This document shows positions 1 to 60,380 of a stretch of DNA of 64,000 bases, piece by piece (the stretch's first letter is position 1; each line of letters opens with the position of its first letter). Below the pieces are notes generated by a model that was given only the letters and a program-made list of their open reading frames with translations, did not search any database and was not told where the DNA came from. Origin of the DNA: an uncultured virus (IMG/VR IMGVR_UViG_3300034062_002951) (taxonomy: Duplodnaviria > Heunggongvirae > Uroviricota > Caudoviricetes). The DNA lies in the IMG/VR virus record IMGVR_UViG_3300034062_002951; one strand, given 5' to 3'. A program made the translations under genes and the position numbers.

Positions 1-768
1 CATAGCACCTTGTTGAACGCCCAATTGACCCAATTGACCCCCCAAAGAACCAAGTCCTTGAGCCATCTGTGAGCCAATACCAAATTGCTGTCCAGCCAAA
101 CTACCAATGCCTTGGCCAATATTACCCAACTGACCATATGCACCAAGTCCGGCTTGTTGCTGTTGCTGGGCCGTGGACAACGCTTGACCGTACCCGCCTT
201 GCAAAGACTGTGCAATGGCTTGGTTTTGGGTCTGCATCAAATTGCGATTGAGTTCTTGCTGAGCAATACCTTGACGGGAACCGCCAAACGCGCCAGCGCG
301 AACAGCTTGAGCATTTAAGCCCTGCTGCTGCATCTGAGCTTGGCGGCTCATTTCTTCCAGTTGCTGGCCCAATACAAGATTGCTGTATGGGTTCATGTAC
401 TGTTGAATCTGCTGCTGACCAATTGGTTGAGCATTTTGCAAAGTACCCGCAGCGGCAAGGTTTTGTGCCTGTTGCGCCGCAGTAAACTGACCTCGAGTAT
501 CCGCTCCACGCAGCAAATCTGCTGCTTCTCCAGTAGTGGCAGTGGCGGCCTGCAAGTTTTGTTGACCCGCCTGCAAGTAGGGGGTGTAGGCCCCAATTCC
601 TTGCTGACCTGCCTGCAAGGCAGCGGTTTGCTGGGGCGTAAATCCAGCTACTTGGTACTGGGGAAGCGTGGGAGCTTGCAAGGCCCCCGCCGCTTTCATT
701 AGATTAAGCTTATACGCTTCGACTTCCGGGGATTCCCGGACTATTTGTTCTGTGGTTTCGGTTGGCAT
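1..768 (-). CDS. Gln/Gly-rich DNA-transfer (ejection/pilot) protein, copy A, truncated by the window edge
   Basis: Not in the ORF track because it has no stop inside the window. Manual translation from ATG 768 gives MPTETTEQIVRESPEVEAYKLNL...TTGEAADLLRGADTR...YMNPY...GAFGG, a clear paralog of 56846..57952. Confidence 0.85.
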   Translation of the reverse strand, partial: MPTETTEQIVRESPEVEAYKLNLMKAAGALQAPTLPQYQVAGFTPQQTAALQAGQQGIGAYTPYLQAGQQNLQAATATTGEAADLLRGADTRGQFTAAQQAQNLAAAGTLQNAQPIGQQQIQQYMNPYSNLVLGQQLEEMSRQAQMQQQGLNAQAVRAGAFGGSRQGIAQQELNRNLMQTQNQAIAQSLQGGYGQALSTAQQQQQAGLGAYGQLGNIGQGIGSLAGQQFGIGSQMAQGLGSLGGQLGQLGVQQGAM

Positions 769-771
769 CTT

Positions 772-3177
772 TTATCCCCGTGCTGCGTTACGTTCGAGTT
801 GGTGCATCAAAGCGTACATTTTCTTTGCGCCTGATAAACGGTCGCCTTTGCCTGCGCCGCGAACGGCCTTGGCAGTCATGACAAATTCGCCGTCAGACAG
901 CATTGCAGGGATTGAATCAGAGGTCGCGGTCCCCGGACCGGATATTTGACCCGTGCGGCGAGGATACCCGCCCTTGGCCAAAGATGCAATACCACCCATG
1001 TCCCGCATTACTGGGCTGGGGGGCATGGCGTTAGACATGATTCCACCCATTGCTGCGTATCGAGGCATGAAGTTGTACATGTTGGCGTTGTTGTAAGGCT
1101 GATAAACAGTACCACTGCCAATTGCACCACTTGGGGTCATGTAAGGAGACGGCGTGTAGGGCATGTAATTTCCTGCAACCTCCGTGGGTCCGGTAGGCTG
1201 TGGGTTAAATGGTTGAGAACCAATAATCTCACCTCTGTCGTTATATTTAATGCCAAATCTTTCCATGCCCTGAGGGGCATAGGCACCGGGGTTTGCCGCC
1301 ACACGGGCCTTTTCATCGGCCAAACGCTGGTTGATGTCGCTTTGCATTTGAGTAGGCTGAGGGGGTGTTGGTGTAAATGCACCTCCCAGACTTGCAATAC
1401 CAAGGCCTGCGCCGATCATTGGGCCATATGTGCCAAGTACCCCCGGCATGGCCGCCTCATATGCCCTTTGATAAGCAGCAGCACGAATGCTTTCAGGGGA
1501 ACGGGCCAACCGGTCATAGGCAGCCTGTCCCGCCGCTTCGGCTTGAGGAATTGCAGCTTCCTTAATGCCGGAGGGAGAAAGGTATTCGTTGTACAGGCCC
1601 TTAGCCTTGTCGAACATGCTTGGTTCTGGAACACGGGCAGGAGTATTAGCCAACGAGCGAGCAGCATCATTTTGCTGAATGAAGTCGCCCAATGGGTCCA
1701 TAGAAGTGGGGGTAGCGCCTTGAGCATTTGCAGAAGGAATAACATCCCCCTTCATAAATGCAGGGGCATTTGCGCCAGTCCCTGTAGCAGGCTGGAATAC
1801 AGGCGTTCCGTCAGGACGAGTAAAGACCTGATACGTTCTTCCATCTGCGGCAACAGTGCGAACACCCCCTGTAGCAGGGTCCATGACTGGCTTGAGGTCT
1901 GCCGCGTTTTGCCCAGCTATCGTGTCACGATTGACAACTTCAGGTAATTCATATTTACCTGTCTCAGGATTAAACTTCCCTGATATGTTTTCCCCAGCTT
2001 GATTTTTGGCCATATCTGCCACAGTGCCTAGTTCAGGAGGCGAAATCTGTGAGGTAAATCCCTTGGTGGCACCTGTAGATAAACCTGATATTGCACCAGC
2101 GGTTATGCCGCTCTTAACAGCATCTTGCAGTTTCTGGCCGGACAACAAACCAATACCAGTGCCGACGATACCGGAAGTAATCGCTGCATTGGCAGCGGCG
2201 TTGGTTACAGCGCCACCAACAAAGTTGGAAACGGCACCACCGGGAGCGCCAAAGAATGCTGTTGCGCCACCAATGGCCGCGCTCTTCAATACATCCTTGA
2301 TGTTGCCTCCGCCCAGTGCAGTTACTGCGCCAGAGGCCAACGCCATGGAGGCTGTTGCACCAAGATTCAATCCTGCAACACCAAAGGCCCCCGGGCCGAG
2401 GAACGTGGCCAACGCAACGGTAGCCAATACCTTGCCGATAGGACTGGATACGATATCTTTAACTGCACCGGCAACGCCTTTGACAACTCCCGTAACAGCT
2501 CCCGTTACGCCCTTAACGGCTCCGCTAATGGCTCCGCCAACTGATTTAACAGTATCACTAAACCACCCATACTCAGGCAAGCCGGTAGCTGGATTGATGG
2601 TGCCCATACCACCCTTGGAACGAAGCATTTGAGCTTCTCTGGGGGTGATGTGCGCCAGCATGGTGTCTTGGCCACGACCACGAGAGGCGACCATGTGTGC
2701 TGCTTCAGCAATCCCGCCCCGCGCCATATTGGCTGGAGGAACGGGAGCCTGTTGGATAGGCATAGCGCCTTGTTGTGCGCCTTGACGGGTTTTTCTGGCC
2801 TGCATGATGACCATGCCCATGGTGGCCAAGAACTCAGGGTCGTATTCCTCTGGGAAATCACCCTGCTCAATAATCCCCGCATCAACCAATTCTTTCAAGA
2901 GCTGTGCATACTCTTCAGGCCTATCGTGCATGTACTGGACGATTTGCAGCAACTGATCCAGCACTTCATCAGGCAACTGATCCAACTGTGGGGCAAGTTT
3001 GGCCAATTCATCATTGACCGCTGTGTACGCATCAGGACTGGCATTTTGCAATCCTTGTTGCACTGCATCATAGGAATCATCTAACCCCAATTGAGGTTGG
3101 GCAGGTGCGCCGGTGTCGGCAGGTGCGCCTTCCATTGGAAGAGCCATAATGCCTTGAGAATCTGCTGCTGTTGCCAT
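772..3177 (-). CDS. Internal virion/ejection protein, copy A (about 800 aa)
   Basis: ORF 772..3195; start moved to 3177 after an AAGGA RBS. Contains GRGQDTMLAHITP..NPATGLPEY, a Gly/Ala hydrophobic segment and C-terminal GPGTATSDSIPAMLSDGEFV. Paralog of 57955..60375. Confidence 0.8.
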   Translation of the reverse strand: MATAADSQGIMALPMEGAPADTGAPAQPQLGLDDSYDAVQQGLQNASPDAYTAVNDELAKLAPQLDQLPDEVLDQLLQIVQYMHDRPEEYAQLLKELVDAGIIEQGDFPEEYDPEFLATMGMVIMQARKTRQGAQQGAMPIQQAPVPPANMARGGIAEAAHMVASRGRGQDTMLAHITPREAQMLRSKGGMGTINPATGLPEYGWFSDTVKSVGGAISGAVKGVTGAVTGVVKGVAGAVKDIVSSPIGKVLATVALATFLGPGAFGVAGLNLGATASMALASGAVTALGGGNIKDVLKSAAIGGATAFFGAPGGAVSNFVGGAVTNAAANAAITSGIVGTGIGLLSGQKLQDAVKSGITAGAISGLSTGATKGFTSQISPPELGTVADMAKNQAGENISGKFNPETGKYELPEVVNRDTIAGQNAADLKPVMDPATGGVRTVAADGRTYQVFTRPDGTPVFQPATGTGANAPAFMKGDVIPSANAQGATPTSMDPLGDFIQQNDAARSLANTPARVPEPSMFDKAKGLYNEYLSPSGIKEAAIPQAEAAGQAAYDRLARSPESIRAAAYQRAYEAAMPGVLGTYGPMIGAGLGIASLGGAFTPTPPQPTQMQSDINQRLADEKARVAANPGAYAPQGMERFGIKYNDRGEIIGSQPFNPQPTGPTEVAGNYMPYTPSPYMTPSGAIGSGTVYQPYNNANMYNFMPRYAAMGGIMSNAMPPSPVMRDMGGIASLAKGGYPRRTGQISGPGTATSDSIPAMLSDGEFVMTAKAVRGAGKGDRLSGAKKMYALMHQLERNAARG

Positions 3178-3213
3178 GTTAGTTCCTTGTGCCATAAGGG
3201 TTTCTTGATCGTA

Positions 3214-3909
3214 TCATGAGGGGATCGCGGAGACAAATGTTATCGACCCAATAGCCGATGGGACTGCTGGGTACGGCATTGGGGTTGTTTGGGCTGCGCG
3301 GTAGTCGATGTATATACCTGTTGCTCCGCCAGATGTAGCGGCCTGATCTGTGCCCCACCACAATCCAACAGTGTCCCCCGCATCCAACTGGAAGACAACC
3401 TCTGAGTACCCGCAGACAAAGTTTGGAAGCAACGCACTTTTCCGGGCTTGGAGGGTAAAAACAGTCGTTGAATTCGCCACATCAGCAGCAGACGTAGAGC
3501 CATTCACACGCAACCAAACAATAGCGTCATGAATAGCGTTGTCGTTGTTGGCAAACTGAAGGCTGTACGTGATTTTGTATATACCAGCAACTTCCGCCGT
3601 GGCCGTGTTGCCTGCATTCAACGTAAACGCATTGCCCTCCTCCAACGTATCCCATTGGACTATGGTTGGTGTATTTGCTGCTGTTGCATACTGTATTGCG
3701 CCATCGGAGGCAGTAATAAATGGGAAGTGCAACAACGCACCGCCCGTATCGGTCGTAAGGATCTGTTCAAAGTTTCGAAGCTGATTAAAGTACAAGCGCA
3801 GCACATTGCTGTACTGCTCTTGAAACTGAGGCGAGTACTCCCGAGGCGACCTTGGCAGGTTTGGAACTGCCGCCGCAATCAAGGATGTTGTTCGATAAAT
3901 GGTGACCAC
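3214..3909 (-). CDS. Tail needle/spike-like structural protein with C-terminal beta-sandwich (C1q-like), copy A
   Basis: 231-aa ORF directly after the nozzle gene. N-terminal helix NVLRLYFNQL, AGIYKITYSLQF and P.PAVPSAI.SITFVS; paralog of 60798..61505. Confidence 0.65.
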   Translation of the reverse strand: MVTIYRTTSLIAAAVPNLPRSPREYSPQFQEQYSNVLRLYFNQLRNFEQILTTDTGGALLHFPFITASDGAIQYATAANTPTIVQWDTLEEGNAFTLNAGNTATAEVAGIYKITYSLQFANNDNAIHDAIVWLRVNGSTSAADVANSTTVFTLQARKSALLPNFVCGYSEVVFQLDAGDTVGLWWGTDQAATSGGATGIYIDYRAAQTTPMPYPAVPSAIGSITFVSAIPS

Positions 3910-6012
3910 TTACCTGCGCCCGTCAGGTCTGATGTCAATACGAGGAGCGCCCATCTGCCATGTCATGTCCAACTGGTTTGACTCAATCTTCATGGCCATT
4001 TGACGACCACGTATGCGTGTGTACACCTGACCCGTAAATTCCTCTACTGGGATCATCGCAGTGCCTGTGACATTTGCGCTGTTGCTGCCGCCAACTGAAG
4101 CAGGGGTGTTGTAGCCAGAACCGGAATTCTTAAGGCCGTAAAGGGACATTGTTGCCACGGGACTGGTCGACGTGGACCCACGGAAAGTCAAGTCTGGCAA
4201 CATGCGCCAGATAAAAGCAAAGTTGTGGCCATCCCCAATGTCAAACTGTGAGGAAACAATGTACGCGTTGATAGCCGCAGCAGTACCCGTCTCATCATCA
4301 TTCAACCCAAATTCCTGATTGACGATGTTGTTGTTGTAGGTAGCAGCAATCGGATAATCCCGCAAGCCAGAATCCAACCACGCTGTACGACCCATCGTGC
4401 CATAAGACCAAACATCTTCCAGATAGTTGTAGGTCACATACAGGTCCACCACAAAACTGCCACTAGAACAATAGAACCACCAGACCTCGTTGAAGCCCTC
4501 GTTTGTACCGGCATACACCTGATCAAGCTGGGACTTGTTGATGTCTTCAAAAATGAATTGACGCAAATCACAGCGCAGTGTTTTGATACTGCCGTCATAC
4601 ATATAGAACTTGTCTACGCCCATCCAAAACACCACGCCTGAAGCCAACGCTGCGGCATTTGGTCCTGCAATCGAAATGTTGTCGCCCAACAGTTGGGAGC
4701 CCCAAATGTAGGGAGGCCCAAGGTATTGCAAAGAGTACAGGGAGGAATCTGTCCACACCACAATCTCTTGTCGAACCTGCATAGCAGTCACAATCTCAGA
4801 ACCGTGCGACAAGCGAATGTCCCCTGCCTGCGTGGTGGCTGTTGGAGTCCAGTTTGCTGCATCTTCCTGATCCGACCAACGGATAAGCATTGGATCTATC
4901 TCGGTAGACCCAATGGCATTTGTTCCAAATGCCAAAACAAACCGGCTTGCGTCAGAGATGGTGAAGTAGTTCTGAAACAACGGCACATCTGATGCCCCAG
5001 CAAGGGAAGACAGGAGAACCCCCCGTTGAGAAATACTGTGTACTCCAGACTGTGTACCTGTGGTGATGATGTTTGCTCCACCATAGGTCGCAGTCAAATT
5101 TGCTGTTGTTCCGCTGGAGTTGGCTACGTAATACACCGTGCCAACAGACAAGCCCGTGGGCAGCGCACCGGTAGTCGTGAGCGTCAACGACATGCCATTG
5201 GTAAGGGTAAAAGAAGAGGATGTAATTACGGCAGGATTGGCAATCGTGACGGTGAATACGCTGGGGGAACTGCCAATGTTGGCGTTCCAGTAATACAGGG
5301 GCCCGCCTCGCGGACCGTAGATCAAGTCTTGGCCAAAGTTGTTTTGATTCCAAATACGCAAAGGGTCGGTGGTTGCTTCGCCGTTGCCCCAAGTGCCGTA
5401 ACCCCACAAGCCCGTTCCCCAACCTGTCAGTGGGACGGAGAAGGAAGGCCCGGTGTTGATTTGGTACTGAGCTACAACTGTACCGCCGGTGCCCGTGTCG
5501 GAAGCGTTGGCAGTGGCAGATACTGTGATGGTATATGTATTGACATTGATTACGGTAACCTGAAATTCGCCGGTCAAAACTGCGGCTGTGATATTGCCGC
5601 CAAGGCTTGTGATTCCCGCACCGCTAAAGGTAACGAAATCGTTGGTGAGGCAACCATGCGCAGTGTCTGTAACAGTTACAACGCTAGACCCTGTACTGGC
5701 AACAAAAGGACCGGTCAGGGTAGCAGTTTCTCTGGTGGGGGTGATGTCGTTATACGCACCGCCTCGCTCAAGGTAGAACTTCAGGTTTGTGCCAACACCT
5801 AAGAGGCTTACGTTACCAAGCGTGACCCACGCCCAAAGTGAGCGACAAACGCCTAAAAAAGAGCTGGGAGAGATGCGTTGCCATCCGCCTATTTTCTCAG
5901 GCGTGCCTTGCCGAAAACGAATCTTGTCGCACTCGTACCATCCCCCCTCGGTTGTGTAGCGTGTGTTTTCACGATTTACACCGGGCTTGAGTAGGATCTT
6001 TTGCAATGGCAT
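3910..6012 (-). CDS. Tail nozzle / packaged-DNA stabilisation protein (P22 gp10 / tail tubular B-like), copy A
   Basis: 700 aa, beta-rich, with KPGVNRENT..GGW, DPMLIRWSDQE, FNEVWWFY and a C-terminal RIDIRPDGRR. Position next to the ejection genes fits. Confidence 0.75.
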   Translation of the reverse strand: MPLQKILLKPGVNRENTRYTTEGGWYECDKIRFRQGTPEKIGGWQRISPSSFLGVCRSLWAWVTLGNVSLLGVGTNLKFYLERGGAYNDITPTRETATLTGPFVASTGSSVVTVTDTAHGCLTNDFVTFSGAGITSLGGNITAAVLTGEFQVTVINVNTYTITVSATANASDTGTGGTVVAQYQINTGPSFSVPLTGWGTGLWGYGTWGNGEATTDPLRIWNQNNFGQDLIYGPRGGPLYYWNANIGSSPSVFTVTIANPAVITSSSFTLTNGMSLTLTTTGALPTGLSVGTVYYVANSSGTTANLTATYGGANIITTGTQSGVHSISQRGVLLSSLAGASDVPLFQNYFTISDASRFVLAFGTNAIGSTEIDPMLIRWSDQEDAANWTPTATTQAGDIRLSHGSEIVTAMQVRQEIVVWTDSSLYSLQYLGPPYIWGSQLLGDNISIAGPNAAALASGVVFWMGVDKFYMYDGSIKTLRCDLRQFIFEDINKSQLDQVYAGTNEGFNEVWWFYCSSGSFVVDLYVTYNYLEDVWSYGTMGRTAWLDSGLRDYPIAATYNNNIVNQEFGLNDDETGTAAAINAYIVSSQFDIGDGHNFAFIWRMLPDLTFRGSTSTSPVATMSLYGLKNSGSGYNTPASVGGSNSANVTGTAMIPVEEFTGQVYTRIRGRQMAMKIESNQLDMTWQMGAPRIDIRPDGRR

Positions 6013-6035: not shown

Positions 6036-6188
6036 TCACTCAGCTACATTATCCTTGGGTTGCTCAGAGGCGGCTTTGGCTTCCTTTTGGATAGCCTCTA
6101 TGACCTGAAAGACTTCAGTGTATGGGCGTGTTCCAAGGTATTGCAGGATGGCGTTTACCAAGTTGGTTGAGAGTTTGATGTCGTTCAT
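6036..6188 (-). CDS. Small hypothetical protein (50 aa)
   Basis: Manual translation MNDIKLSTNLVNAILQYLGTRPYTEVFQVIEAIQKEAK...; start overlaps the upstream stop (ATGA). Confidence 0.7.
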   Translation of the reverse strand: MNDIKLSTNLVNAILQYLGTRPYTEVFQVIEAIQKEAKAASEQPKDNVAE

Positions 6189-7318
6189 GCTTGTGTTCCT
6201 GTTGTTGGCGCTGGTGTCTCCAGTGCAGTGATGCGGGTTGTCAGGGATTGGATGAGGGCTTGTTGTTCTTTTATTGCGGCAACAAGTAAAGGGATAGTGT
6301 CGGTGTAAGACAAATTTAATGTCCCAATCTCATCATCTTGAACATATATGGCTTCAGGCAATACATTTTGTACATCTTGAGCAATCAAAAAAGCTCTTCT
6401 AGTTCCATTTGGGTCTTTTTTTAATTTTCCTATTACCGACCTTAATGAATTTACTTTTTCTATTGCATTTGTAATTGGCTCAATAATGTCTTTTGCACGC
6501 TCATCAGATACTGCACTCCATGAGGTACTTCCATACGCTTGAGATTGACCTATTGAATTACCATCAAGAATATATATACCTCCAGTGCCATCTTGTGCAA
6601 AACGGGTATATCTTCCTGCCGTTGCTCCTGTATACCTAAACGTTAATAAATTAGTAGTTGCGCTAACAAAAGAAACTTTTTCATCTGTAAATCTACTCGT
6701 AGTCCCCACCAGCAAGTTACCGCCGTTGGGGTTGAGCAATAGGTCGTAATTTTGTGCCAAACTTGTTTGGTCTGTAGCCTGTATCCAGCCAGCGCCACTT
6801 GAAGAAAGAGACCCAAAGTCTATTACTCCATTTGCGGCAGTTCTGATTCTGAATGTTCCGTTTTGGGTAGTTCCTGAAGTAGCAGGGCCAGTCCCTGTGC
6901 CGCCAGATAGACTTAAAGTTAATGCAGGCAAATTAGTACCAATCCCCACTTTACCAGAGGAGTCGATACGCATACGTTCTGTGCCAGAAGTTCTAAAAGT
7001 TAGTGGATGCGCTGTTTCTGTACCAAAAAAAGACAAAGTGGTATCAGTTGACCAATATGCATTTACTGTCGAATCACGAACATATTGCAATGGCCCAGTG
7101 CTTTTAAACACATCTAAACGACTTACTGGCGTAACGCCAATACCAACGTCACCAGAACTATTAATCCGCATAGCCTCCACACCGCCTTCAGAAAAAGCAA
7201 TGGTGTCAGCGGCAGGGAAGAAGATACCTGTGTTTGCATCTGTTCCCCTGATAGCAGGGGTTGCGGCACTACCATCAACATCGGATAGGCCGTCTGTGCC
7301 TGAAAGAATTAAAGTCAT
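6185..7318 (-). CDS. Tail fibre/spike with C-terminal intramolecular chaperone (peptidase S74-like)
   Basis: Repeated RMRIDSSG.VGIGT motifs, an SDERAKDI autocleavage motif, FLIAQDVQNVLPEA and a terminal coiled coil. Confidence 0.85.
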   Translation of the reverse strand: MTLILSGTDGLSDVDGSAATPAIRGTDANTGIFFPAADTIAFSEGGVEAMRINSSGDVGIGVTPVSRLDVFKSTGPLQYVRDSTVNAYWSTDTTLSFFGTETAHPLTFRTSGTERMRIDSSGKVGIGTNLPALTLSLSGGTGTGPATSGTTQNGTFRIRTAANGVIDFGSLSSSGAGWIQATDQTSLAQNYDLLLNPNGGNLLVGTTSRFTDEKVSFVSATTNLLTFRYTGATAGRYTRFAQDGTGGIYILDGNSIGQSQAYGSTSWSAVSDERAKDIIEPITNAIEKVNSLRSVIGKLKKDPNGTRRAFLIAQDVQNVLPEAIYVQDDEIGTLNLSYTDTIPLLVAAIKEQQALIQSLTTRITALETPAPTTGTQA

Positions 7319-8442
7319 GCTGATGCTCCTTTGAGTGCCGCTACATCGGCTTGCAATTGGGTGATGAGGGCTTGTTGCTCCTTGATTGCGGCAAACAACA
7401 AAGGCACAGTATCGCTGTAGGACAAGCCATATTTCTCAGGGTCTTGCGTATCTACAGCTTCAGGCAATGCCGTTAAAAAGTCTTGAGCAATCAAGAATGG
7501 TCTGCGTTTTGTTACGCCGTTTTCTTCATCATATATATACCGCCCTGTTACCGCACGAACACCCGCAACTCTGTCTAACGCATTTTCAATGGGTTGAAGC
7601 TCTGTTTTAAAACGCTCATCAGATACCGCAGTCCAACTTGAAGCTGTATTTACTTGATATACACCATAAACACCAATACCCGCCGCACCTTGACCGCCAC
7701 CAGTGCCAACATAAAAGTTGGTGTCTGTACTTGATTTAAAGCCTATATGCGATTCTACTTGTGCGTTTTTTAGCATATAAATTTGCAACGCAACATTTGA
7801 ATTAGATACTAAAGACATTCCTTGCGGAGCGGCAACAGTTGAGGGAGATATACCCCCATACCCCAACATCAAGTTTCCGTCAGCATCAAGGCGCATACGA
7901 GTGTTTGCAGAGCCGCTTACATATCTTGCAAAATCTAAGTGACCAGTTGCCGAATCACAAGTTAAGTCGTAGCCGTCAGTTGTGTTGGATTGCTCAAGAT
8001 GTAACTGCCTAGAACCCGTACCGCCACCTGACGCTTGTTTAATAGTGACTTTAGCCGTACTGAGGGGCGAAGTTGTACCAACACCAACATTACCACTAGA
8101 GTCGATTACCATCCCTTTTTGGTTGCCGCCAGCGCTATCAATCACATACAGGTACAAAGTTCCAGCGGTTGAACCGTTTGGCCCAAATGCGGCAAGCCTT
8201 GCAAAACCAGACTCTTGAGACAAAGCAACTGTGCTTGCACCAATAGCGCTTAATGCCGCACTTGAGTTAATAGCACCCGCAACATTAAGTTTGTTTGTTA
8301 ATGTAGTTGTACCAATCCCCACATTCTGTGAAGCATCTACAGTAACCGCCGTTGTCCCCGCAGTTTGAAGCGCCAACACGCCGCTGGTGTCAGCAGTCTG
8401 GACTAGACCAGCACTGGTGCTGGCATTGAGTGTTACAGCCAT
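7315..8442 (-). CDS. Tail fibre/spike with C-terminal intramolecular chaperone (peptidase S74-like)
   Basis: IDSSGNVGVGTT repeats, SDERFKTE motif, FLIAQD..LPEAV and IKEQQALI coiled coil. Confidence 0.85.
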   Translation of the reverse strand: MAVTLNASTSAGLVQTADTSGVLALQTAGTTAVTVDASQNVGIGTTTLTNKLNVAGAINSSAALSAIGASTVALSQESGFARLAAFGPNGSTAGTLYLYVIDSAGGNQKGMVIDSSGNVGVGTTSPLSTAKVTIKQASGGGTGSRQLHLEQSNTTDGYDLTCDSATGHLDFARYVSGSANTRMRLDADGNLMLGYGGISPSTVAAPQGMSLVSNSNVALQIYMLKNAQVESHIGFKSSTDTNFYVGTGGGQGAAGIGVYGVYQVNTASSWTAVSDERFKTELQPIENALDRVAGVRAVTGRYIYDEENGVTKRRPFLIAQDFLTALPEAVDTQDPEKYGLSYSDTVPLLFAAIKEQQALITQLQADVAALKGASA

Positions 8443-8606
8443 TATGTGTTCTCCTCATCTGCGGGTAGTGGTGTGTTGCCCTCTGCAAGCCATGCTTGAA
8501 ACTCAGGATAGTCTGCCGTGCAAGTCAGGCGGCATAAGCCGTCGTCATCAATACGAGCGTAGATTTGTTTTTGGCCTTCAACTAGGGGAAGCATTTTATA
8601 AATCAT
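8442..8606 (-). CDS. Small tail-fibre-associated protein (54 aa)
   Basis: Manual translation MIYKMLP...DYPEFQAWLAEGNTPLPADEENT; overlaps both neighbours. Confidence 0.7.
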   Translation of the reverse strand: MIYKMLPLVEGQKQIYARIDDDGLCRLTCTADYPEFQAWLAEGNTPLPADEENT

Positions 8607-9811
8607 AATTCAGCACTCCATCCAAGATATGCAGTTACGTTTTGCCCATAAAGAACCCCGCCAAAACCAGTTGTTTGACCTGATGCAACTGTTGTTTGCA
8701 CAGACCATGTATTTTGTGTGGTTATTGATTGGTAGGCAACAACAGCAGATGACGCCCTATCAACGCCGCCTGTTTGAACTGTGTAATGCGAGGCAGTGCC
8801 ATTTTGCTCAAGAGCAGTTGGGGATACTCTCATTGTTACTGGAAAGCTACCTGTAAATGCACCATTGATAGCAGAAAAAGCAAACCCCGTACCAAATAAG
8901 TAACTTGTGTCATCTGCTTGTATCTTGTAATAATATCTCTGACAAAGCTGAAGTTCAGTCCCATATGGTCTGTAATCAAAGCTCGTTGCTGTTGAGCCTT
9001 TTTCTAGCTGTACGCCTGTGATGTAGAAAGTAGCATTGAGAGTCCCAATTACTGATGTCGCACCTGTGGCTGAAAAATATTGTGCCGTCGCCCACGCTCC
9101 AGCAGTGCCACTATATGTAGAACCTACGCCAAGACCAAAAGCAACATGAATTCCAATACCATTAGTTGTTAACCATGTTCCTGATGTATCTCCAGCAATG
9201 GTTATAGTTTTTTGCTCCCAAGTATCGGCAGTAGAAATTGTGAATGTAAATGGATAACTTCTAGTTTGTGCTGAGTTTCTTAAAGAACCACCAAAAGTGC
9301 CAGTTAAACTTGAACGCACCCAAAAAGATAGTGCAACTGTTGCCGCAGATGCTGTTCCCCATCCTAAATCGGAAATATTGAATCCTTCAATTTTTTGTTG
9401 TATCAAAGCAAATTGTGTTGAAGCTAAAGAAGAATCAGCGGTAGTTGTTGTAAGTTTTAAAGAGTTAATAAAACCAGTTGGAGCCGATGAATTTTGCTGT
9501 GCTGTCATTACACCATCAGTGTCTTCGTATCCTTGCCATCTATCAACAGTGTAAGTTCCACCACTTGCTAAAGTAACACTTGCCCCCGCATTCCTTTGGT
9601 CAATCACCATTGCACCATTGATGATGCGGTTTTTGAAGCCGTAGTAGCCAGTGGTTGTGCCTGTACCGCCTTGGGCTTCTGTTACTGTTGTGCCTGATTG
9701 CAGTATCGTGCCGCTTGTTGCTGGCAAAGTAAGCGTAGTTGTACCCGCTACCGCTGGTGCGGAGATGGTTACTGCACCACTCGTATCGCCATTAATTACT
9801 ACGCTTGCCAT
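8603..9811 (-). CDS. Tail fibre protein
   Basis: 402 aa with FKNRIINGAMVIDQR, ITGVQLEKGSTATSFDYRPYGTELQLCQRYY motifs typical of phage fibre carbohydrate-binding-like domains. Confidence 0.8.
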   Translation of the reverse strand: MASVVINGDTSGAVTISAPAVAGTTTLTLPATSGTILQSGTTVTEAQGGTGTTTGYYGFKNRIINGAMVIDQRNAGASVTLASGGTYTVDRWQGYEDTDGVMTAQQNSSAPTGFINSLKLTTTTADSSLASTQFALIQQKIEGFNISDLGWGTASAATVALSFWVRSSLTGTFGGSLRNSAQTRSYPFTFTISTADTWEQKTITIAGDTSGTWLTTNGIGIHVAFGLGVGSTYSGTAGAWATAQYFSATGATSVIGTLNATFYITGVQLEKGSTATSFDYRPYGTELQLCQRYYYKIQADDTSYLFGTGFAFSAINGAFTGSFPVTMRVSPTALEQNGTASHYTVQTGGVDRASSAVVAYQSITTQNTWSVQTTVASGQTTGFGGVLYGQNVTAYLGWSAEL

Positions 9812-9823
9812 ATCTTTTCTCCT

Positions 9824-10804
9824 TTACTGGATAACCCAGCGTGAGCCAGATGCAACTGTTACCGCCGCACCGCCTGAAACCGTTATCGGACCTGCCGACA
9901 TACCTGAAAAGCCAGCCGCAATCGTATAGCTCGTAGCCACAGTCAGGCTGTTCACGACGATGCCGTTGGATGCAACAGGAACCCTTGCTTTAAGTTCACC
10001 AGTGCTTGGCTTGTACAAAAGAAACGCATTGCCTGTGAACAGGGTTGATGCCGTTCCAGTCGTAGCGTTTGCAAACAGTGGGAATACATCGGTTGCTGTG
10101 CTGGTGTCATTGCTCAGTGCCGCACCACCCACAGAAGCCCATGCAGTGCCGTTGTAGCCCTCAAACTCAGTTGTGGTAGTGTTGAAGCGCAACATACCGC
10201 TTGTTGCAGTAGGGCGCTCGCCAGTCGTTCCCTTGCTGATGGTCAACGCACCAGTTGATGAGAATGTTGAGTCCAACGTAGCTGTCAATGCGCCCGTTAC
10301 CGCAAGCGTTGTGCCATTCCATGTCAGGTTGGCAGAGCCTCCCAGCACACCGCTGTTATTAAACTGAACCTGCGTGTTTGACCCTGCTGCATTTGCAATC
10401 GTTGAACTGGTCTTGATAAAGTCAACGCCGTTCCAAGCGCAGACCGCAGATTCACCTGCAATGATCGTGACACCGGTTGTTGGACCAACGCCCACCAGCT
10501 TGATTGACTGAGTGCTAGAGGTCTTATTGATGACCACATAGGCCTTTGACTGCGCTGGCGCAGTGATGGTTCGCAGGGTTGTCCCACCCGCCGTCCACAA
10601 AATAATCGCCTGCCGGGCCTGGTTTGCAGCCCCAGAAGTCGTTGTCAGGGTTACGTCTGCGTCGGAACTCAGCGTGGTGGTGCCCGCTACAGCGGTATCC
10701 AACAGACTGGTAATCTCGTCGTTGACTACTGTTCCCCAGGTATTGGCTTCCGTCCCTGTGACGGGTTTGGCTAGGCCAAGAAGGGTGGTGTAATTGATTG
10801 TCAT
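9824..10804 (-). CDS. Tail fibre anchor / tail structural protein
   Basis: 326 aa, Thr/Gly-rich, with GTEANTWG N-terminus and GMLRFNTT..FEGY.GTAW module. Confidence 0.7.
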   Translation of the reverse strand: MTINYTTLLGLAKPVTGTEANTWGTVVNDEITSLLDTAVAGTTTLSSDADVTLTTTSGAANQARQAIILWTAGGTTLRTITAPAQSKAYVVINKTSSTQSIKLVGVGPTTGVTIIAGESAVCAWNGVDFIKTSSTIANAAGSNTQVQFNNSGVLGGSANLTWNGTTLAVTGALTATLDSTFSSTGALTISKGTTGERPTATSGMLRFNTTTTEFEGYNGTAWASVGGAALSNDTSTATDVFPLFANATTGTASTLFTGNAFLLYKPSTGELKARVPVASNGIVVNSLTVATSYTIAAGFSGMSAGPITVSGGAAVTVASGSRWVIQ

Positions 10805-10814
10805 CTTGTTTTCC

Positions 10815-11711
10815 TCATGCCGCTATGCGCGTCCACACGTTTGCTTGTGCATCATTAACTTCGACCCAACCAGGAGACTGTGAATCATTGACATTTTGCC
10901 AGTTAACTGATTGGCTGTCATCAACAATTGACCAAACCAGAACCCCGCCAACTTGGCCAATCCCTTGTACGCCTGTGACGTTGACTTGAGCGCCAATCCC
11001 CACCGATACCGACCCAACGCTGCCCGTGGCCGATAGGCCCACAACCGTGACAACCCGTACGATTTCGATGACAACGCTTCCAACCGCCCCTGTCGCTTCA
11101 ACGCCTGTAAGGGAAACATTAGCGTCCCCAGCAAAGTCAACCGATCCAACCTGGCCAGTCGCCTCCACCCCTGTCGCAAAGACATCAGCATTCGCAGCAA
11201 CCGTGGTTGCCCCGACAAAGCCTGTGGCCTCAACTCCCGTGAGGACGACACTTGCTCCAATGCTGACGGAGACTGATCCAACGTCGCCTGTTCCAGATAC
11301 TCCCGTGAGCGATACATTGGCTTCACCTGCGACTGTTGCCGCACCGACAAAGCCTGTGGCAGATACCCCTGTAAGCGATACATTGGCGCTTGTATTGACT
11401 GTGACCGATCCAACGTCGCCTGTTCCAGACACCCCGGTGAGACTGACGTTAGCCTCTCCAACAACAGTGGCCGTACCAACAAAGCCTGTGGCTGAAACGC
11501 CTGTAAGGGTGACATTCGCGTCTGCCGTAACGGTAACTGCGCCAATTTGGCCCGTTGCAGAGACCCCTGTGACATCGACATTGGCGTCCGCTGCCACTGT
11601 GGCCGTACCGACCTCACCTGTTGCAGACAGCGTGACCGCACCCTCGCCCCAGGGGGCCTCGCCCCAGGCTTGACTGCCAAATCCACCAAGTGCAATCCGT
11701 ACATCGGCCAC
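10815..11711 (-). CDS. Repeat-containing virion structural protein (22-aa repeats)
   Basis: About 11 copies of VxLTGVxATGxVGxxxVxxxAN. Confidence 0.75.
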   Translation of the reverse strand: MADVRIALGGFGSQAWGEAPWGEGAVTLSATGEVGTATVAADANVDVTGVSATGQIGAVTVTADANVTLTGVSATGFVGTATVVGEANVSLTGVSGTGDVGSVTVNTSANVSLTGVSATGFVGAATVAGEANVSLTGVSGTGDVGSVSVSIGASVVLTGVEATGFVGATTVAANADVFATGVEATGQVGSVDFAGDANVSLTGVEATGAVGSVVIEIVRVVTVVGLSATGSVGSVSVGIGAQVNVTGVQGIGQVGGVLVWSIVDDSQSVNWQNVNDSQSPGWVEVNDAQANVWTRIAA

Positions 11712-11720
11712 TTACGCCTC

Positions 11721-12158
11721 TTAGGCAATACGAAGTATTGCGTTTGTTGCGTCAGCAGTTGGGAAGATGATGGTGAAAGTGCCCGCACTAGAGCTCTTTG
11801 AGCCACCAAAATCAAGAATACATACCGAAGGGTCACCTGCGGCACTGTCGTTGTAAATCATCGCTCCAAAGGCCGTGATCGTGGCACTGGTAAACGACAA
11901 ATCCGCAAAGTCCGTGAAAGCAGTCGTACCGGAAGACGTTGGTGTTACGTTTGTCAACGCACCGCCGCCGGCCGAGTATGTGCCTGATGCAGATACCTCA
12001 TTGGAAGCAGTGTATGCAGTTGTTGCCGCTGTAAAAGAGGCACTGTTGTCATACATTGCCAGCTTGAAAGTGTTTCCAGTGCCGGTCGTAAAGTTGTGTA
12101 CGCCTTTCATCAGCTCCACTTTGAAGCTGGTACACATGAAATTTCCTGAAAATGCCAT
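11721..12158 (-). CDS. Virion structural protein (145 aa)
   Basis: CTSFKVEL..HNF..FKLAMY..LDFGG; lies in the tail operon with a good RBS. Confidence 0.7.
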   Translation of the reverse strand: MAFSGNFMCTSFKVELMKGVHNFTTGTGNTFKLAMYDNSASFTAATTAYTASNEVSASGTYSAGGGALTNVTPTSSGTTAFTDFADLSFTSATITAFGAMIYNDSAAGDPSVCILDFGGSKSSSAGTFTIIFPTADATNAILRIA

Positions 12159-12160
12159 TT

Positions 12161-12448
12161 TTAATCTCCTAACAAATGAACGAGGTTGGAATGACCTGCT
12201 TCACGCAGGCGGATTGCGATAGTTGCCCTATCTTGATTTACCGCTTCTTCAAGATAGGCCTTGATGACGGATCGCACAGCGCCCCGAAAAGCCACGGCCT
12301 GTTCTCGAATTGCTGGATGTGACTCACTTCCAACGTAAATAATCTTTTCAATAGCCCGGTCGGCCAACTCGTCAGGAGTCCAGCCACGTCCATTGGTGGT
12401 AGCGACGCTTACGCCGCTTAGTAACACAGGGGATTGGGTTCCTATCAT
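12161..12448 (-). CDS. Hypothetical protein (95 aa)
   Basis: Tightly coupled ORF in the structural operon. Confidence 0.7.
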   Translation of the reverse strand: MIGTQSPVLLSGVSVATTNGRGWTPDELADRAIEKIIYVGSESHPAIREQAVAFRGAVRSVIKAYLEEAVNQDRATIAIRLREAGHSNLVHLLGD

Positions 12449-13101
12449 GGTCCAGGTGTCTCCGATTTAAGTTGAACACGTACCATGCCATCACGATACT
12501 CATCACGACGGCGACGGCCTTGCTGCTCAATACCCAGCCCTTGAAGAGCTTGTTTGTAGCTTGCGTCAAAGGTGGCCATCATGTCAGGCGGTCCTTTGGT
12601 ATAGCTATATGCTTGGATCAAACAGGCATAGAACAACGCCTCAGGAGCGTTTGTGCTGATCCATGTCGTGTTGTTCGTCGAAGAAAGCTGGGGAGGACGA
12701 TAGATATAGCCCATTTCCGCAACAAACGCAGCGTTTGGAGTCGGGGCGATATAGAAAGTGTTTTGGTCCCACACGGAATAGTATTTGGGAATGCCTGTTG
12801 TGGCACCGTTTGGCCAATACTCTTTCATGAAGGACGTATCGCGAAAGTCCAAAAAGATTTGGTCCGTGCCAGAGGTGATCATCAAGTAACGATGAGTCAA
12901 GATATCGCTTGGCGCAGACAAAAACTTGTTGCCACTGGTCATGTTGCCAGTCACTTCAAGCTTAAAGACATCCAAATCGATGTCCCTCAAAATTCTGTTC
13001 TCTGCAAAAGTAATGAACGTGTTTATTACCGCCGGAGTAAAGACGTTCGCGTCCACTTCGGTGTAATTTCGTATGTTTGTTACAAGTTCATCGTATGTCA
13101 T
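12445..13101 (-). CDS. Head-tail connector/adaptor-like protein
   Basis: 218 aa, MTYDELVTNIRNY..AENRI..G.PKYY..APTP; position fits an adaptor. Confidence 0.65.
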   Translation of the reverse strand: MTYDELVTNIRNYTEVDANVFTPAVINTFITFAENRILRDIDLDVFKLEVTGNMTSGNKFLSAPSDILTHRYLMITSGTDQIFLDFRDTSFMKEYWPNGATTGIPKYYSVWDQNTFYIAPTPNAAFVAEMGYIYRPPQLSSTNNTTWISTNAPEALFYACLIQAYSYTKGPPDMMATFDASYKQALQGLGIEQQGRRRRDEYRDGMVRVQLKSETPGP

Positions 13102-13448
13102 GATGTTTGCACCGTTACAGAGCCAACTACTCCTTGAGCAATCAAGGCCTTATCCTCTATGTAGGGACGCATGTCATTGGTGTTTCTCGCCGTCCCAAAA
13201 CTCTGGAAAGCTGAAAAACCAGGTGCACCTACAAAGACAGATACAGGTTCAATTCTATCTGGCCTTGGCTCATAAAGGGCGATTGCATCGCCTCTATATT
13301 TCAAAGGCTCAAGCTGTGGTTCCTTGGGCTCGTAATCATCTGGACAGACCTTGAATCCACGCCAGTTCTTGCGAAGCACGTTGTATTCATATCGCTGGCC
13401 GCAGTAATCACACAGGCCATATGAAAATTTACCTGTTGCGAAGGCCAT
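13098..13448 (-). CDS. Small Cys-containing structural-operon protein
   Basis: CDYCG...CPDDYEPK and PRPD motifs. Confidence 0.7.
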   Translation of the reverse strand: MAFATGKFSYGLCDYCGQRYEYNVLRKNWRGFKVCPDDYEPKEPQLEPLKYRGDAIALYEPRPDRIEPVSVFVGAPGFSAFQSFGTARNTNDMRPYIEDKALIAQGVVGSVTVQTS

Positions 13449-13451
13449 GTG

Positions 13452-14117
13452 TCACACCCCTAAGTCAGGAACAAAGCTGACGCTGGCAATGTCTCTGTCT
13501 TCCATCCCGGCGCGCAAGAAATCTTCTTCGTAGATAGTCTTGAGCGCGCCTGTGCGCTCGGGCGCGTACTTGAGGGAGATGTAGTACGCCAGTCCTGATG
13601 TCAGGCATGGCAAGAATCTGAAGTTGACGTCTGATGTGTTGGTGTACGCGCCAGCGTCTTGGATGCGGCGAATCCTGTAGTACACAAACGTGTAGTTCTG
13701 GTCGGCCGCAGGATAGAAAAACACCTTTGGCACGTTCGTTCTCTGCACGTAGTACTGAGCCGGGCGTGCCTGGGATGTTTTGTCAGGGATGTTTAAGTAC
13801 TCAGAGCGACTGATACGGTCAATTGTGATGTCCGTCAAGATGCCCTGAGAAGGGTCTCGAATGACAGCAGACAAAACGTTAACGGTGTCTGTAGCCAACG
13901 ATATCTCATTGATACCCTGCGTGATGGCATAGGTGGCTTGCTCAATCGTCCAAAGGTTCAGGCCCCTGTTCGCCCAATCCAGGAACAACAGATTGAGAGA
14001 GCGGCGCGCAGACTTAAGCTGGTAGCCGTTTGTGCCACGTATGCCGCATCTCTCAAATGCTTCTTCGATCAAGTCATCGATTGACAGATCAAAGGTGGTT
14101 GTTCCTGAAGTTGTCAT
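13452..14117 (-). CDS. Head-tail adaptor / tail tubular protein A-like
   Basis: IEEAFERCG..ARRSLNLLFLDWANRGLNLW..RFLPCLTSGLAYY. Confidence 0.7.
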   Translation of the reverse strand: MTTSGTTTFDLSIDDLIEEAFERCGIRGTNGYQLKSARRSLNLLFLDWANRGLNLWTIEQATYAITQGINEISLATDTVNVLSAVIRDPSQGILTDITIDRISRSEYLNIPDKTSQARPAQYYVQRTNVPKVFFYPAADQNYTFVYYRIRRIQDAGAYTNTSDVNFRFLPCLTSGLAYYISLKYAPERTGALKTIYEEDFLRAGMEDRDIASVSFVPDLGV

Positions 14118-15015: not shown

Positions 15016-15016
15016 G

Positions 15017-15190: not shown

Positions 15191-15199
15191 CACTGCTCC

Positions 15200-15995: not shown

Positions 15996-15996
15996 G

Positions 15997-54778: not shown

Positions 54779-54781
54779 GGC

Positions 54782-57952: not shown

Positions 57953-57954
57953 AA

Positions 57955-60375: not shown

Positions 60376-60380
60376 GATTA

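What the first reader, a model, noticed from the sequence alone, without database searches (positions are those of the whole stretch)
1..6012. Two diverged copies of the nozzle-needle-ejection block in one contig
Seen: four genes at 1..6012 (700 aa, 231 aa, ~800 aa and a truncated Gln-rich gene) have same-order, same-strand paralogs at 56846..63355 (617, 235, 806 and 368 aa). They share protein motifs but are far from identical in DNA, so this is not terminal redundancy. Only one terminase, portal, capsid and replication set is visible. Their contexts differ: copy A follows the tail fibres, copy B follows the endolysin. Known: podoviruses normally have one nozzle and one ejection set. Inference: either one phage builds two alternative tail/DNA-delivery machines on one capsid, which would be unusual, or two related phages are joined here. 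The ~57 kb spacing is close to a plausible genome length, and the likely terminus near 29.5 kb is a natural join point.
Basis: partly seen in the sequence, partly recalled or inferred. Interest (0 to 1): 0.8.

Follow-up and report, generated by a model that had tools for sequence, protein, structure and literature searches.

The report
Phage contig with two tail cassettes
A lake-phage contig carries two diverged versions of the tail-tip and DNA-injection gene set, most likely because the assembler went once round a 60-kb circular genome and then ran on into a co-occurring variant, not because one phage builds two machines.

Summary
Block A (1-6012) and block B (56846-63355) are same-order, same-strand paralogues at 25-50% protein identity, with no DNA similarity between them. 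Each encodes a tail hub/nozzle, a needle-like protein and ejection proteins. The window holds only one packaging, head and replication set.

The reading "one phage, two machines" is probably wrong. Exact-protein look-ups place the window on a 69,398-bp contig. That contig also carries, outside the window, the zinc-ribbon gene, a 226-aa gene, the spanin and the full endolysin. In close strains these sit between the fibres and block B. This leaves at most about 3.1 kb, too little for the rest of a second block.

An independent contig (L103) is 100% identical to window 12873-9028. It then follows the canonical path: variant fibres, small ORF, zinc ribbon, lysis. If the window begins at the contig's first base, the contig's other end falls 76 nt before that divergence point, which looks like a k=77 overlap. 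The contig then reads as a 60.3-kb circle with block B, plus a 9-kb tail of alternative fibres and block A from a co-occurring variant.

One hub was found in all 16 long relatives, in all 160 related loci and in 122 of 123 GenBank records. A real double-block genome is not excluded (about 0.12).

The parts
3910..6012 (-). A1, tail hub/nozzle, A-type (700 aa)
   Evidence: PHROG 3287, E 3e-64. PDB 9NWI_Y (Pa223 tail hub), E 8.5e-16. 37-41% identical to B1. 60-75% identical to 80 kept IMG/VR loci. Its 90% cluster has 14 members.
3214..3909 (-). A2, needle-like tail-tip protein (231 aa)
   Evidence: Sits directly downstream of the hub. Homologous to B2 over the full length (25%; BLASTP 30% over 138 aa). 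No PDB or PHROG match.
772..3195 (-). A3, large ejection/internal protein (807 aa)
   Evidence: C-terminal 67 aa are 66% identical to B3. PHROG matches to tape-measure-like C-termini. 50% identical to the G012 749-aa protein. N-terminal 91 aa are 88% identical to L007.
1..768 (-). A4, ejection protein cut by the window edge (256 aa seen)
   Evidence: 50% identical to B4. Gln/Gly-rich. Representative of its 90% cluster is 356 aa long.
6036..6188 (-). s51, 50-aa ORF at the module boundary; homology to canonical strains stops at 6062-6076
   Evidence: First 42 aa are 88-90% identical to the small ORF of L103, L106, L107 and L108, where a zinc-ribbon gene follows. The 50-aa form and A1-type hubs share longest-contig values 69,398, 56,380 and 41,661.
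6185..9027 (-). Variant branch V2: C-terminal part of fibre 8603-9811, the 54-aa ORF 8442-8606, and fibres 7315-8442 and 6185-7318
   Evidence: PHROG tail-fibre hits. L103 is identical down to 9028 and diverges from 9027. L104 carries V2 down to 8112, joined to the shared segment.
9028..16150 (-). Segment shared by both variants: fibre N-termini, two SU10-type adaptors, neck genes
   Evidence: L103 is 100% identical over 12873-9028. L104 has 1 mismatch over 8112-16150 and then 6 mismatches in 16155-16371. Adaptors PF24175.
61502..63355 (-). B1, tail hub/nozzle, B-type (617 aa), in the canonical slot after the lysis genes
   Evidence: PHROG 3287, E 6e-97. 9NWI_Y, E 4e-15. 67% identical to the DSL-LC04 'stabilization protein'. 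90-100% identical in IMG/VR strains.
60798..61505 (-). B2, needle-like protein with a TNF/C1q-like trimeric knob (235 aa)
   Evidence: AlphaFold2 model has pLDDT 80-90 for residues 78-235. Foldseek hits to BclA and TNF-family jelly rolls at E about 1e-6, and to cyanophage tail entries.
60463..60795 (-). Bx, 110-aa gene with no counterpart in block A
   Evidence: PHROG 1276. 56% identical to DSL-LC04.
57955..60375 (-). B3, large ejection/internal protein (806 aa)
   Evidence: 70-83% identical in close strains.
56846..57952 (-). B4, ejection protein (368 aa)
   Evidence: PHROG 4287 'DNA ejection protein', E 6.5e-8.
51527..56836 (-). B5 (684 aa, 54782-56836) and B6 (1083 aa, 51527-54778), the last ejection proteins
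   Evidence: 38% and 45% identical to the DSL-LC04 645-aa protein and 'DNA transfer protein'. No family hits. Exact run contigs bridge 51444-52058 and 51444-52639 into the replication module.
63359..64000 (-). s77 (63359-63592), s63 (63589-63780) and the C-terminal part of the M15 endolysin (63782-64000): end of the lysis cassette upstream of B1
   Evidence: G001/L004 is 100% identical and extends 921 bp further through the endolysin and spanin into the holin. Run depth here is 4-7 times that of block B in X1-X3.

Best explanation
The window is the first 64 kb of a 69,398-bp metagenomic contig that is longer than one genome.

One lap of a roughly 60.3-kb circular (or circularly assembled) DSL-LC04-like podophage genome runs, in gene direction: zinc ribbon, 226-aa gene, holin, spanin, endolysin, s63, s77; then block B (hub, needle-like protein, six further genes); then replication, packaging, head and adaptor genes and the fibre N-termini.

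At window 9027, inside a fibre gene, the path does not close the circle into its own fibre ends. It continues into the branch of a co-occurring relative that shares the 9.0-16.15 kb segment. That branch holds alternative fibre C-termini, a 50-aa ORF and block A, and it breaks off in the Gln/Gly-rich part of A4.

Each phage therefore builds one tail tip: a hexameric hub under two adaptor rings, plugged by a trimeric needle-like protein with a TNF-like knob, with ejection proteins that leave the capsid with the DNA. A and B are alternative cassettes of the same machine. They are swapped between strains together with the fibre tips.

Shown: the paralogy; the contig length; the extra canonical genes on the contig; both variants existing separately in independent contigs; one hub in every relative examined.

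Inferred: that the window starts at contig base 1; that the unseen 5.4 kb is collinear with L103; the 76-nt overlap; what the block-A phage looks like beyond A4.
For: 1. Contig length. All 15 exact window proteins found in the collection, out of 17 asked, have longest contig 69,398. These include A1, B1, terL, portal, capsid, the fibres and the 1083-aa protein.

2. Genes outside the window. The exact L103 zinc-ribbon protein, the exact L103 226-aa protein, and the G001 spanin and endolysin are also on a 69,398-bp contig. Tblastn finds no zinc ribbon, 226-aa, 95-aa, 60-aa or holin gene in the window. They must lie beyond base 64000, in the order seen in L103, L106, L107, L108, L118 and L121. 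That puts the zinc-ribbon start at about coordinate 66,277 and leaves at most 3,121 bp. The rest of a block A would need about 100 aa of A4 plus counterparts of the 684/822-aa and 1083/1141-aa proteins, at least 5.3 kb.

3. The canonical path in a near-identical strain. L103 is 100% identical to window 12873-9028 (3,846 nt), with its first mismatch at 9027. It then goes: variant fibres, small ORF, zinc ribbon, 226-aa gene, holin, with no hub.

4. Overlap arithmetic. With the window at contig base 1 and collinearity with L103, the contig end maps to L103 position 3771. That is 76 nt of exact sequence before the first mismatch, one short of k=77. The circle then measures 60,295 bp. Contigs of close strains reach 60,227-62,619 bp. 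Relatives rated 95-100% complete are 58.2-63.7 kb, and DSL-LC04 is 61,547 bp.

5. The other branch exists independently. L104 carries the window's own fibre variant (to 8112) joined to the shared segment, with 7 mismatches in 8,301 nt. Six of them are clustered at 16155-16371.

6. One hub everywhere else.
- 15 of 15 long IMG/VR records, 10 of them at least 90% complete, plus DSL-LC04.
- 0 of 160 related loci have two hub places.
- 122 of 123 GenBank phage records have one place. The exception is a 124-kb record of a 45-kb phage type, with 3 places.

7. Precedent. A 67,995-bp IMG/VR contig of this phage group has ends that overlap by 4,367 nt at 99.9%.

8. Physical limit (own knowledge). Tailed phages rarely package more than about 105-110% of their genome, and two blocks would give about 72 kb against 60-63 kb. 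A passage of the Pa223 preprint notes that P22 lacking ejection proteins packages longer DNA, so these proteins take up capsid space.
Against: - I never saw the 5,398 bp outside the window. The order of the genes there, the window's offset in the contig and the 76-nt overlap are all inferred.
- The overlap is 76 nt, not 77, and the assembler and its k are unknown.
- All 4 runs chosen for holding window 1-10000 (word shares 0.79-0.95) also cover block B and its flanks in 30 of 30 bins with exact contigs. No contig joins across block B. That is what a genome with both blocks would give, although co-occurrence of two phages would give it too.
- Exact contigs in the replication module have about the same depth as those in block B (X1: 20.4 against 13.9-23.5; X3: 27.4-29.5 against 22.0-28.4). 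So a B-less strain with an identical replication module would be rare there. The model therefore needs the block-A phage to differ outside the shared 7-kb segment.
- A linear contig cut from a 72-kb double-block circle, broken in A4 and near the A5/A6 border, also fits the length budget.
Confidence: 0.75

Rival explanations
1. This is a real double-block genome of about 72 kb. A canonical phage (fibres, lysis, block B) recombined with a relative that keeps its block before the lysis genes. The crossovers fell in the fibre gene (at 9027) and near the zinc-ribbon/226-aa genes. One molecule now carries fibres, block A, lysis genes, block B. The contig is a linear piece of that circle.
For: - Both architectures exist among close relatives. 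L101 and L099 run from a G012-type last ejection gene through the 226-aa gene, holin, endolysin, s63 and s77 straight into replication genes, with no block after lysis.
- Their lysis module is 84-89% identical in DNA to G001 and L103, so homologous crossover there is plausible.
- Block B is present, with exact contigs, in 4 of 4 runs that hold the block A region, and no B-less joint is seen.
- All visible A genes are intact ORFs.
- G002, a more distant relative rated 100% complete, is 70.7 kb.
Against: - The rest of block A does not fit into the 3.1 kb left on the contig, so closure is unproven.
- The zinc-ribbon gene, which in the canonical strains starts inside the 3' end of the small ORF (L103), is still on the contig.
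- This model gives no reason for the 76-nt coincidence.
- No relative has two hubs: 16 long records, 160 loci, 122 of 123 GenBank records.
- A genome 17-20% above the clade's 60-63 kb, plus a second load of internal proteins, strains packaging (own knowledge).
Confidence: 0.12
2. This is a plain misjoin of two otherwise distinct phages with no lap round a circle. The assembler switched from phage X to phage Y somewhere between 6062 and 8112, in a fibre gene or the small ORF, through a shared stretch.
For: - No independent contig that I could read spans 6062-8112. L104 stops at 8112 and L103 diverges at 9027.
- The small ORF is 95% identical in DNA to that of L007, a phage with an A-type hub.
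- Fibre junctions are conserved between phages.
- The lake runs hold many relatives at 90-99% identity.
Against: - Each gene of the stretch is seen as an exact protein on several contigs: fibre 7315-8442 on 4, fibre 6185-7318 on 2, the small ORF on 11, A1 on 4.
- The 50-aa ORF form and A1-type hubs recur together on contigs of 56,380 and 41,661 bp.
- The fibre stop and the small ORF's start overlap (ATGA), a native-looking junction.
- This model does not explain the canonical zinc-ribbon and 226-aa genes on the same contig.
Confidence: 0.08
3. These are two whole related phages in tandem (tandem prophages or a concatemer), with a second portal, capsid and polymerase beyond the window.
For: The 57.3-kb spacing between A1 and B1 is about one genome length.
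Against: - The contig is only 69,398 bp, so at most 5.4 kb lies outside the window, and at least 2.3 kb of that is lysis-region genes.
- The two copies are 25-50% identical in protein, so they are not concatemer units.
- No bacterial genes were seen in the window.
Confidence: 0.01

Closest known systems
Phage DSL-LC04 (OR003939.1; 61,547 bp, circular; metagenome-assembled from Dishui Lake and checked by PCR; proposed family 'Dishuiviridae'; PMC10611076, passages read)
   Same: Same gene order round the whole circle. 37 of 82 window ORFs match by tblastn. Core proteins are 70-89% identical (capsid 89%, terL 76%, portal 74%, polymerase 76%). Block B is the syntenic counterpart (hub 67%) and follows the holin and M15 peptidase.
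   Different: DSL-LC04 has one block. Its fibre region is about 11 kb against about 6 kb here. The gene between terL and portal is 825 aa against 1554 aa here. Block A is only about 37% identical to its hub.
Pseudomonas phage Pa223 (Bruynoghevirus) tail: hub gp59, needle gp58, ejection proteins gp56/gp54/gp53 (bioRxiv 10.1101/2025.06.11.659172, passages read; PDB 9NWI)
   Same: Both hubs match chain Y (513 aa, 6 copies) at E 4e-15 and 8.5e-16. The gene order is the same: fibre, hub, needle-sized gene, ejection genes ending in a protein of about 1000 aa. Both have two adaptor genes or rings.
   Different: Sequence identity is low (about 25%). The hubs here are 100-190 aa longer. A2 and B2 have no sequence match to any solved chain. 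The ejection set here has more and larger genes.
P22/Sf6-type tail tip: gp10 hub, gp26 needle, ejection proteins gp7/gp20/gp16 (recalled; not checked in a call beyond the Pa223 preprint's comparison)
   Same: It works alike: a hub closed by a trimeric needle-plug of about 230 aa, followed by ejection-protein genes. Records in the phage collection call these hub homologues 'stabilization protein'.
   Different: No sequence-level membership was shown here. The packaging, head and replication modules are unrelated to P22.
Over-length assemblies of circular phage genomes
   Same: Two examples turned up. IMGVR_UViG_3300043449_001484 (67,995 bp) has ends that overlap by 4,367 nt at 99.9%. GenBank PQ859842.1 (124,075 bp) carries three hub places for a phage type of about 45 kb. 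As here, the record is longer than one genome and module copies recur.
   Different: In those records the repeated parts are near-identical copies of the same strain. Here the second pass enters a strongly diverged cassette, so no repeat is visible in the DNA and end-repeat checks would not flag it.

Membership tests
Podovirus tail hub/nozzle (Pa223 gp59-like; PHROG 3287) | Sequence homology to a structurally defined hub | tested here: met
   A1 and B1 against PDB 9NWI_Y: E 8.5e-16 and 4e-15. The chain is identified as tail hub gp59, residues 1-513, in the preprint. PHROG 3287: E 3e-64 and 6e-97.
Podovirus tail hub/nozzle (Pa223 gp59-like; PHROG 3287) | Gene lies between the fibre or lysis genes and the needle and ejection genes | tested here: met
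Podovirus tail hub/nozzle (Pa223 gp59-like; PHROG 3287) | Forms a hexameric ring under the adaptor in the virion | not testable with these tools
   No virion data. The 6 chains in 9NWI are the homologue's state, not this protein's.
Trimeric tail needle/plug (P22 gp26 / Pa223 gp58 kind) | Gene of about 200-240 aa directly downstream of the hub | tested here: met
   A2 is 231 aa and B2 is 235 aa, and each abuts its hub gene.
Trimeric tail needle/plug (P22 gp26 / Pa223 gp58 kind) | N-terminal helical plug plus a trimeric distal domain | tested here: inconclusive
   In the B2 model, helix 18-38 has only pLDDT about 45-57. Residues 78-235 form a confident jelly roll that matches trimeric TNF/C1q/BclA folds at Foldseek E about 1e-6, TM about 0.6-0.74 on the target. 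The trimer itself was not modelled.
Trimeric tail needle/plug (P22 gp26 / Pa223 gp58 kind) | Sequence homology to a solved needle | tested here: not met
   No PDB chain at E up to 1 for A2 or B2. No PHROG or Pfam hit.
Podovirus ejection (internal virion) proteins | Family-level match to known ejection proteins | tested here: inconclusive
   B4 matches PHROG 4287 'DNA ejection protein' at E 6.5e-8, and A4 is 50% identical to B4. B6 is 45% identical to a DSL-LC04 gene annotated 'DNA transfer protein'. B3, B5 and B6 have no Pfam or PDB hits.
Podovirus ejection (internal virion) proteins | Present in virions and released on infection | not testable with these tools
   Needs proteomics of particles.
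DSL-LC04-like phages (proposed 'Dishuiviridae') | Shared gene order and core protein identity | tested here: met
   37 of 82 ORFs match. Core proteins are 70-89% identical and collinear round the circle.
Over-length (wrap-around) contig with a variant tail | Contig longer than complete genomes of close relatives | tested here: met
   69,398 bp against 58.2-63.7 kb, 61,547 bp and 60,227-62,619 bp for contigs of close strains.
Over-length (wrap-around) contig with a variant tail | Canonical genes that would close the circle are present on the same contig besides the extra module | tested here: met
   The exact L103 zinc-ribbon and 226-aa proteins are on the 69,398-bp contig but not in the window.
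Over-length (wrap-around) contig with a variant tail | Contig end overlaps an internal site by about k bases at the branch point | tested here: inconclusive
   The 76-nt figure is computed from L103 collinearity and an assumed window offset of 0. The contig's end was not seen.
Over-length (wrap-around) contig with a variant tail | Each branch occurs alone in independent assemblies | tested here: met
   Canonical branch: L103, L106, L107 and L108. Window's fibre variant: L104. The 50-aa ORF with A1-type hubs on contigs of 56,380 and 41,661 bp, inferred from matching contig lengths.
Over-length (wrap-around) contig with a variant tail | Read depth or read pairs show two populations | not tested
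Depth of block A is unknown.

The most novel reading that the evidence does not exclude
The block-A lineage really carries both cassettes. A crossover between a phage that keeps its hub-needle-ejection block before the lysis genes and one that keeps it after them made a viable roughly 72-kb recombinant. This would be the transitional form through which the whole DNA-delivery module moves between the two slots. It might build particles with either of two tail tips on one capsid.
Probability: 0.1. Interest if true: 0.75.

Novelty: not a real feature. Interest (0 to 1): 0.2.

Why it matters
Taken at face value, this contig would suggest a podophage with two hubs, two needles and two ejection sets, which would be a striking claim. 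The evidence points instead to a contig that overshoots one genome and picks up a diverged cassette from a neighbouring strain.

Checks for end repeats or k-mer duplication cannot catch this kind of error, because the two copies share no DNA similarity. It is a useful warning for viral catalogues built from metagenomes.

The biology underneath is ordinary in kind but worth noting. Strains that are identical over kilobases differ in one package: fibre tips plus hub, needle and ejection proteins. Relatives place that package on either side of a shared lysis cassette.

Tried and rejected
- The window's own assembly is not held, and earlier findings returned nothing.
- Exact 50-60-mers from A4, A3 and the last fibre, and a degenerate pattern for an invariant A1 peptide, found nothing. 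That was 0 loci in viral contigs and 0 in metagenome contigs.
- I hoped the depth comparison would separate one genome from two. Exact-contig depths argue against a B-less strain with an identical replication module. However, summed depth at 90% likeness or more is 7-12 higher in the replication bins than in block B for X1-X3, so a slightly diverged second phage fits too. It does not decide.
- Loose-end consensus strings were searched in the window with up to 5 mismatches. None matched, so they come from other strains, not from block A.
- I tried to learn from homologues of A4 whether the gene is cut by the contig end. That tool lists only cluster representatives (best is 96% identical, 356 aa), so the offset stays unknown.
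- A join at about 29.5 kb is rejected.
- A chimeric join exactly between the small ORF and A1 was considered. It is weakened by the recurrence of that pair on contigs of three lengths and by G012, where a weak homologue of the small ORF also sits just upstream of the hub.
- PDB sequence searches for B3, B2, A2 and B6 gave nothing.
- Base composition shows no step at either block.

Full report
**What is in the window.** All long genes lie on the minus strand. In gene direction, from 64000 down to 1, the window holds:
- the end of an M15 endolysin and two small genes;
- block B: hub B1, needle-like B2, a 110-aa gene, B3, B4, and 684-aa and 1083-aa proteins;
- a replication module: exonuclease and helicase on the plus strand, then primase, helicase and DNA polymerase;
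- many small genes and a small-terminase-like gene;
- terL, a 1554-aa protein, the portal, a GroES-like gene and the major capsid protein;
- two SU10-type adaptors and four fibre genes;
- a 50-aa ORF, here called s51;
- block A (A1-A4), cut by the window edge.

There is one packaging, one head and one replication set.

BLASTP between the blocks gives:
- A1/B1: 37-41%.
- A2/B2: 30% over 138 aa, and 25% over the full length in the alignment.
- A3/B3: 66%, but only over the C-terminal 67 aa.
- A4/B4: 50%.

There is no nucleotide similarity between the blocks.

**The gene labels.**
- Both hubs match the solved tail hub gp59 of Pseudomonas phage Pa223 (PDB 9NWI chain Y, E 4e-15 and 8.5e-16; preprint passages).
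- A model of B2 has a confident C-terminal jelly roll that matches trimeric TNF/C1q/BclA folds and cyanophage tail entries. That fits a trimeric tail-tip or needle protein.
- Neither A2 nor B2 has a sequence match to a solved needle.

**The nearest named phage.** Phage DSL-LC04 (61,547 bp, circular, PCR-checked) has the same gene order all round.
- Core proteins are 70-89% identical.
- It has one block, directly after the holin and endolysin.
- Block B is its counterpart (hub 67%). A1 is only about 37% identical to that hub.

**A-type hubs elsewhere.**
- They are common in IMG/VR, with 80 loci kept at 51-75% identity.
- In most of these loci an endolysin gene ends just upstream of the hub.
- G012 is the best match to block A as a whole (66/50/50/70%). 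There the hub follows the fibres and a weak homologue of s51, with no lysis genes between.

**How many hubs relatives have.**
- 15 of 15 long IMG/VR records searched whole hold one hub gene. Ten of them are at least 90% complete.
- 0 of 160 loci around A-type or B-type hubs hold a second hub in the DNA fetched. Flanks of 9 kb or more were available upstream in 30 loci and downstream in 55.
- In GenBank phages, 122 of 123 matching records have one place. The exception is a 124-kb record of a 45-kb phage type with three places.

**Close strains show the canonical path.**
- G001, a 16,151-bp IMG/VR contig, is 100% identical to window 48771-64000. It extends 921 bp further through the endolysin and spanin into the holin.
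- L103 is 100% identical to window 12873-9028. It diverges from 9027 and then runs: variant fibres, s51, zinc ribbon, 226-aa gene, holin.
- L106, L107 and L108 (B1 96-98% identical) show s51, zinc ribbon, 226-aa gene, lysis genes, s63, s77, B1, with no hub before the lysis genes. L118, L120, L121 and L130 agree over the parts they cover.
- In the window, homology to these strains stops inside s51 at 6062-6076, which is where the zinc-ribbon gene starts in them. A1 begins at 6012.
- L104 carries the window's own fibre variant down to 8112, joined to the shared segment. It has 7 mismatches in 8,301 nt, six of them at 16155-16371. The phage with that variant therefore seems to share only about 9.0-16.15 kb with the other.

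**The contig.** Exact-protein look-ups give the same longest contig, 69,398 bp, for all 15 window proteins found in the collection out of 17 asked.
- The same length is reported for the exact L103 zinc-ribbon protein, the exact L103 226-aa protein, and the G001 spanin and endolysin.
- None of the zinc-ribbon, 226-aa or holin genes is in the window.
- The contig therefore runs at least about 2.3 kb beyond base 64000 through the canonical pre-lysis genes. At most 3.1 kb remains.
- The missing rest of a block A would need at least 5.3 kb.
- The contig is thus not a closed circle with two full blocks.

**The overlap arithmetic.** Suppose the window starts at contig base 1 and the hidden part is collinear with L103.
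- The contig then ends 76 nt before the first L103/window mismatch. That is one short of k=77, a common assembly word size.
- The circle would be 60,295 bp, within the 60.2-62.6 kb of contigs from close strains.
- I judge such a near-hit unlikely by chance, below about 1% on a rough count of common k values over a 3-kb range.
- It does rest on two assumptions that I could not check.
- A 67,995-bp contig of the same phage group with ends overlapping by 4.4 kb at 99.9% shows that such overshoot happens here.

**Reads.** 24 lake or freshwater runs hold window 1-10000, three of them at word shares of 0.93-0.95. In the four best runs:
- Window 44001-64000 is covered in 30 of 30 bins.
- Exact contigs lie all along block B.
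- Exact contigs in X1 and X2 bridge the junction between block B and the replication module.
- No contig skips block B.
- The last bin, over the lysis genes, has about 4-7 times the depth of block B in X1-X3 and about twice in X4. That cassette is therefore shared by other, more abundant phages.

This fits a genome with both blocks as well as two co-occurring phages. I had no second call to measure block A's depth.

**Two slots.** L101 and L099 run from the end of a G012-type last ejection gene, through the 226-aa gene, holin, endolysin, s63 and s77, straight into replication genes.
- Their lysis region is 84-89% identical in DNA to G001 and L103.
- Relatives thus keep the block either before or after a shared lysis cassette.
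- A crossover within that cassette could make a real double-block genome, and it could equally mislead an assembler.

**Verdict.** The paralogy is real. The "two machines in one phage" reading is most likely a contig that overshoots one genome into a variant branch (0.75). A real double-block genome remains possible (about 0.12); against it stand the contig's length budget, the universal single hub and packaging limits (own knowledge).

Noticed in passing
L101 (1-9319) and L099, compared with window 46077-51321 and 63359-64000: Relatives whose lysis cassette is followed directly by the replication genes. Their hub-ejection block sits before the lysis genes instead. The whole DNA-delivery block therefore occupies either of two slots flanking a shared lysis cassette.
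   Followed up: partly
window 63344-64000: In lake runs X1-X3 the summed contig depth over s77, s63 and the endolysin end is about 4-7 times that of block B (about twice in X4). The cassette is shared at 90% identity or more with more abundant phages.
   Followed up: no
window 23238-27902 (-): A 1554-aa ORF lies between terL and the portal. That is nearly twice the 825-aa 'PcfJ-like' gene at the same place in DSL-LC04, with only a weak local match to it. No PHROG hit, and a sub-threshold DUF6973 hit.
   Followed up: no
window 12445-13101 and 13452-14117 (-): Two paralogous SU10-type adaptor genes (PF24175, E 5e-28 and 2e-9). This recalls the two coaxial adaptor rings described for Pa223.
   Followed up: no
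L225/L226 (IMGVR_UViG_3300043449_001484, 67,995 bp): The two ends of this relative's contig overlap by 4,367 nt with 4 mismatches. It is an over-length assembly of a genome of roughly 62-64 kb.
   Followed up: partly
GenBank PQ859842.1 (124,075 bp): A Pseudomonas phage record of a roughly 45-kb phage type holds three hub places. It looks like a concatemeric assembly.
   Followed up: no
window 11140-11627 (-), in ORF 10823-11845: An internal direct repeat with a 132-nt shift at about 71% identity lies in a 340-aa gene with no family match, upstream of the fibres.
   Followed up: no
window 28000-32000: G+C rises to 58-60% against about 52% elsewhere. The ORFs at 29536-31394 have no counterpart in DSL-LC04, but they are conserved at 94-100% in 13 IMG/VR contigs next to terL.
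   Followed up: partly
L007 (1-6770): A mosaic relative. Its s51 is 95% identical in DNA to the window's, and its A3-like N-terminus is 87% identical in DNA. Its A-type hub (68%), however, sits after the lysis genes, and it has no zinc ribbon.
   Followed up: partly
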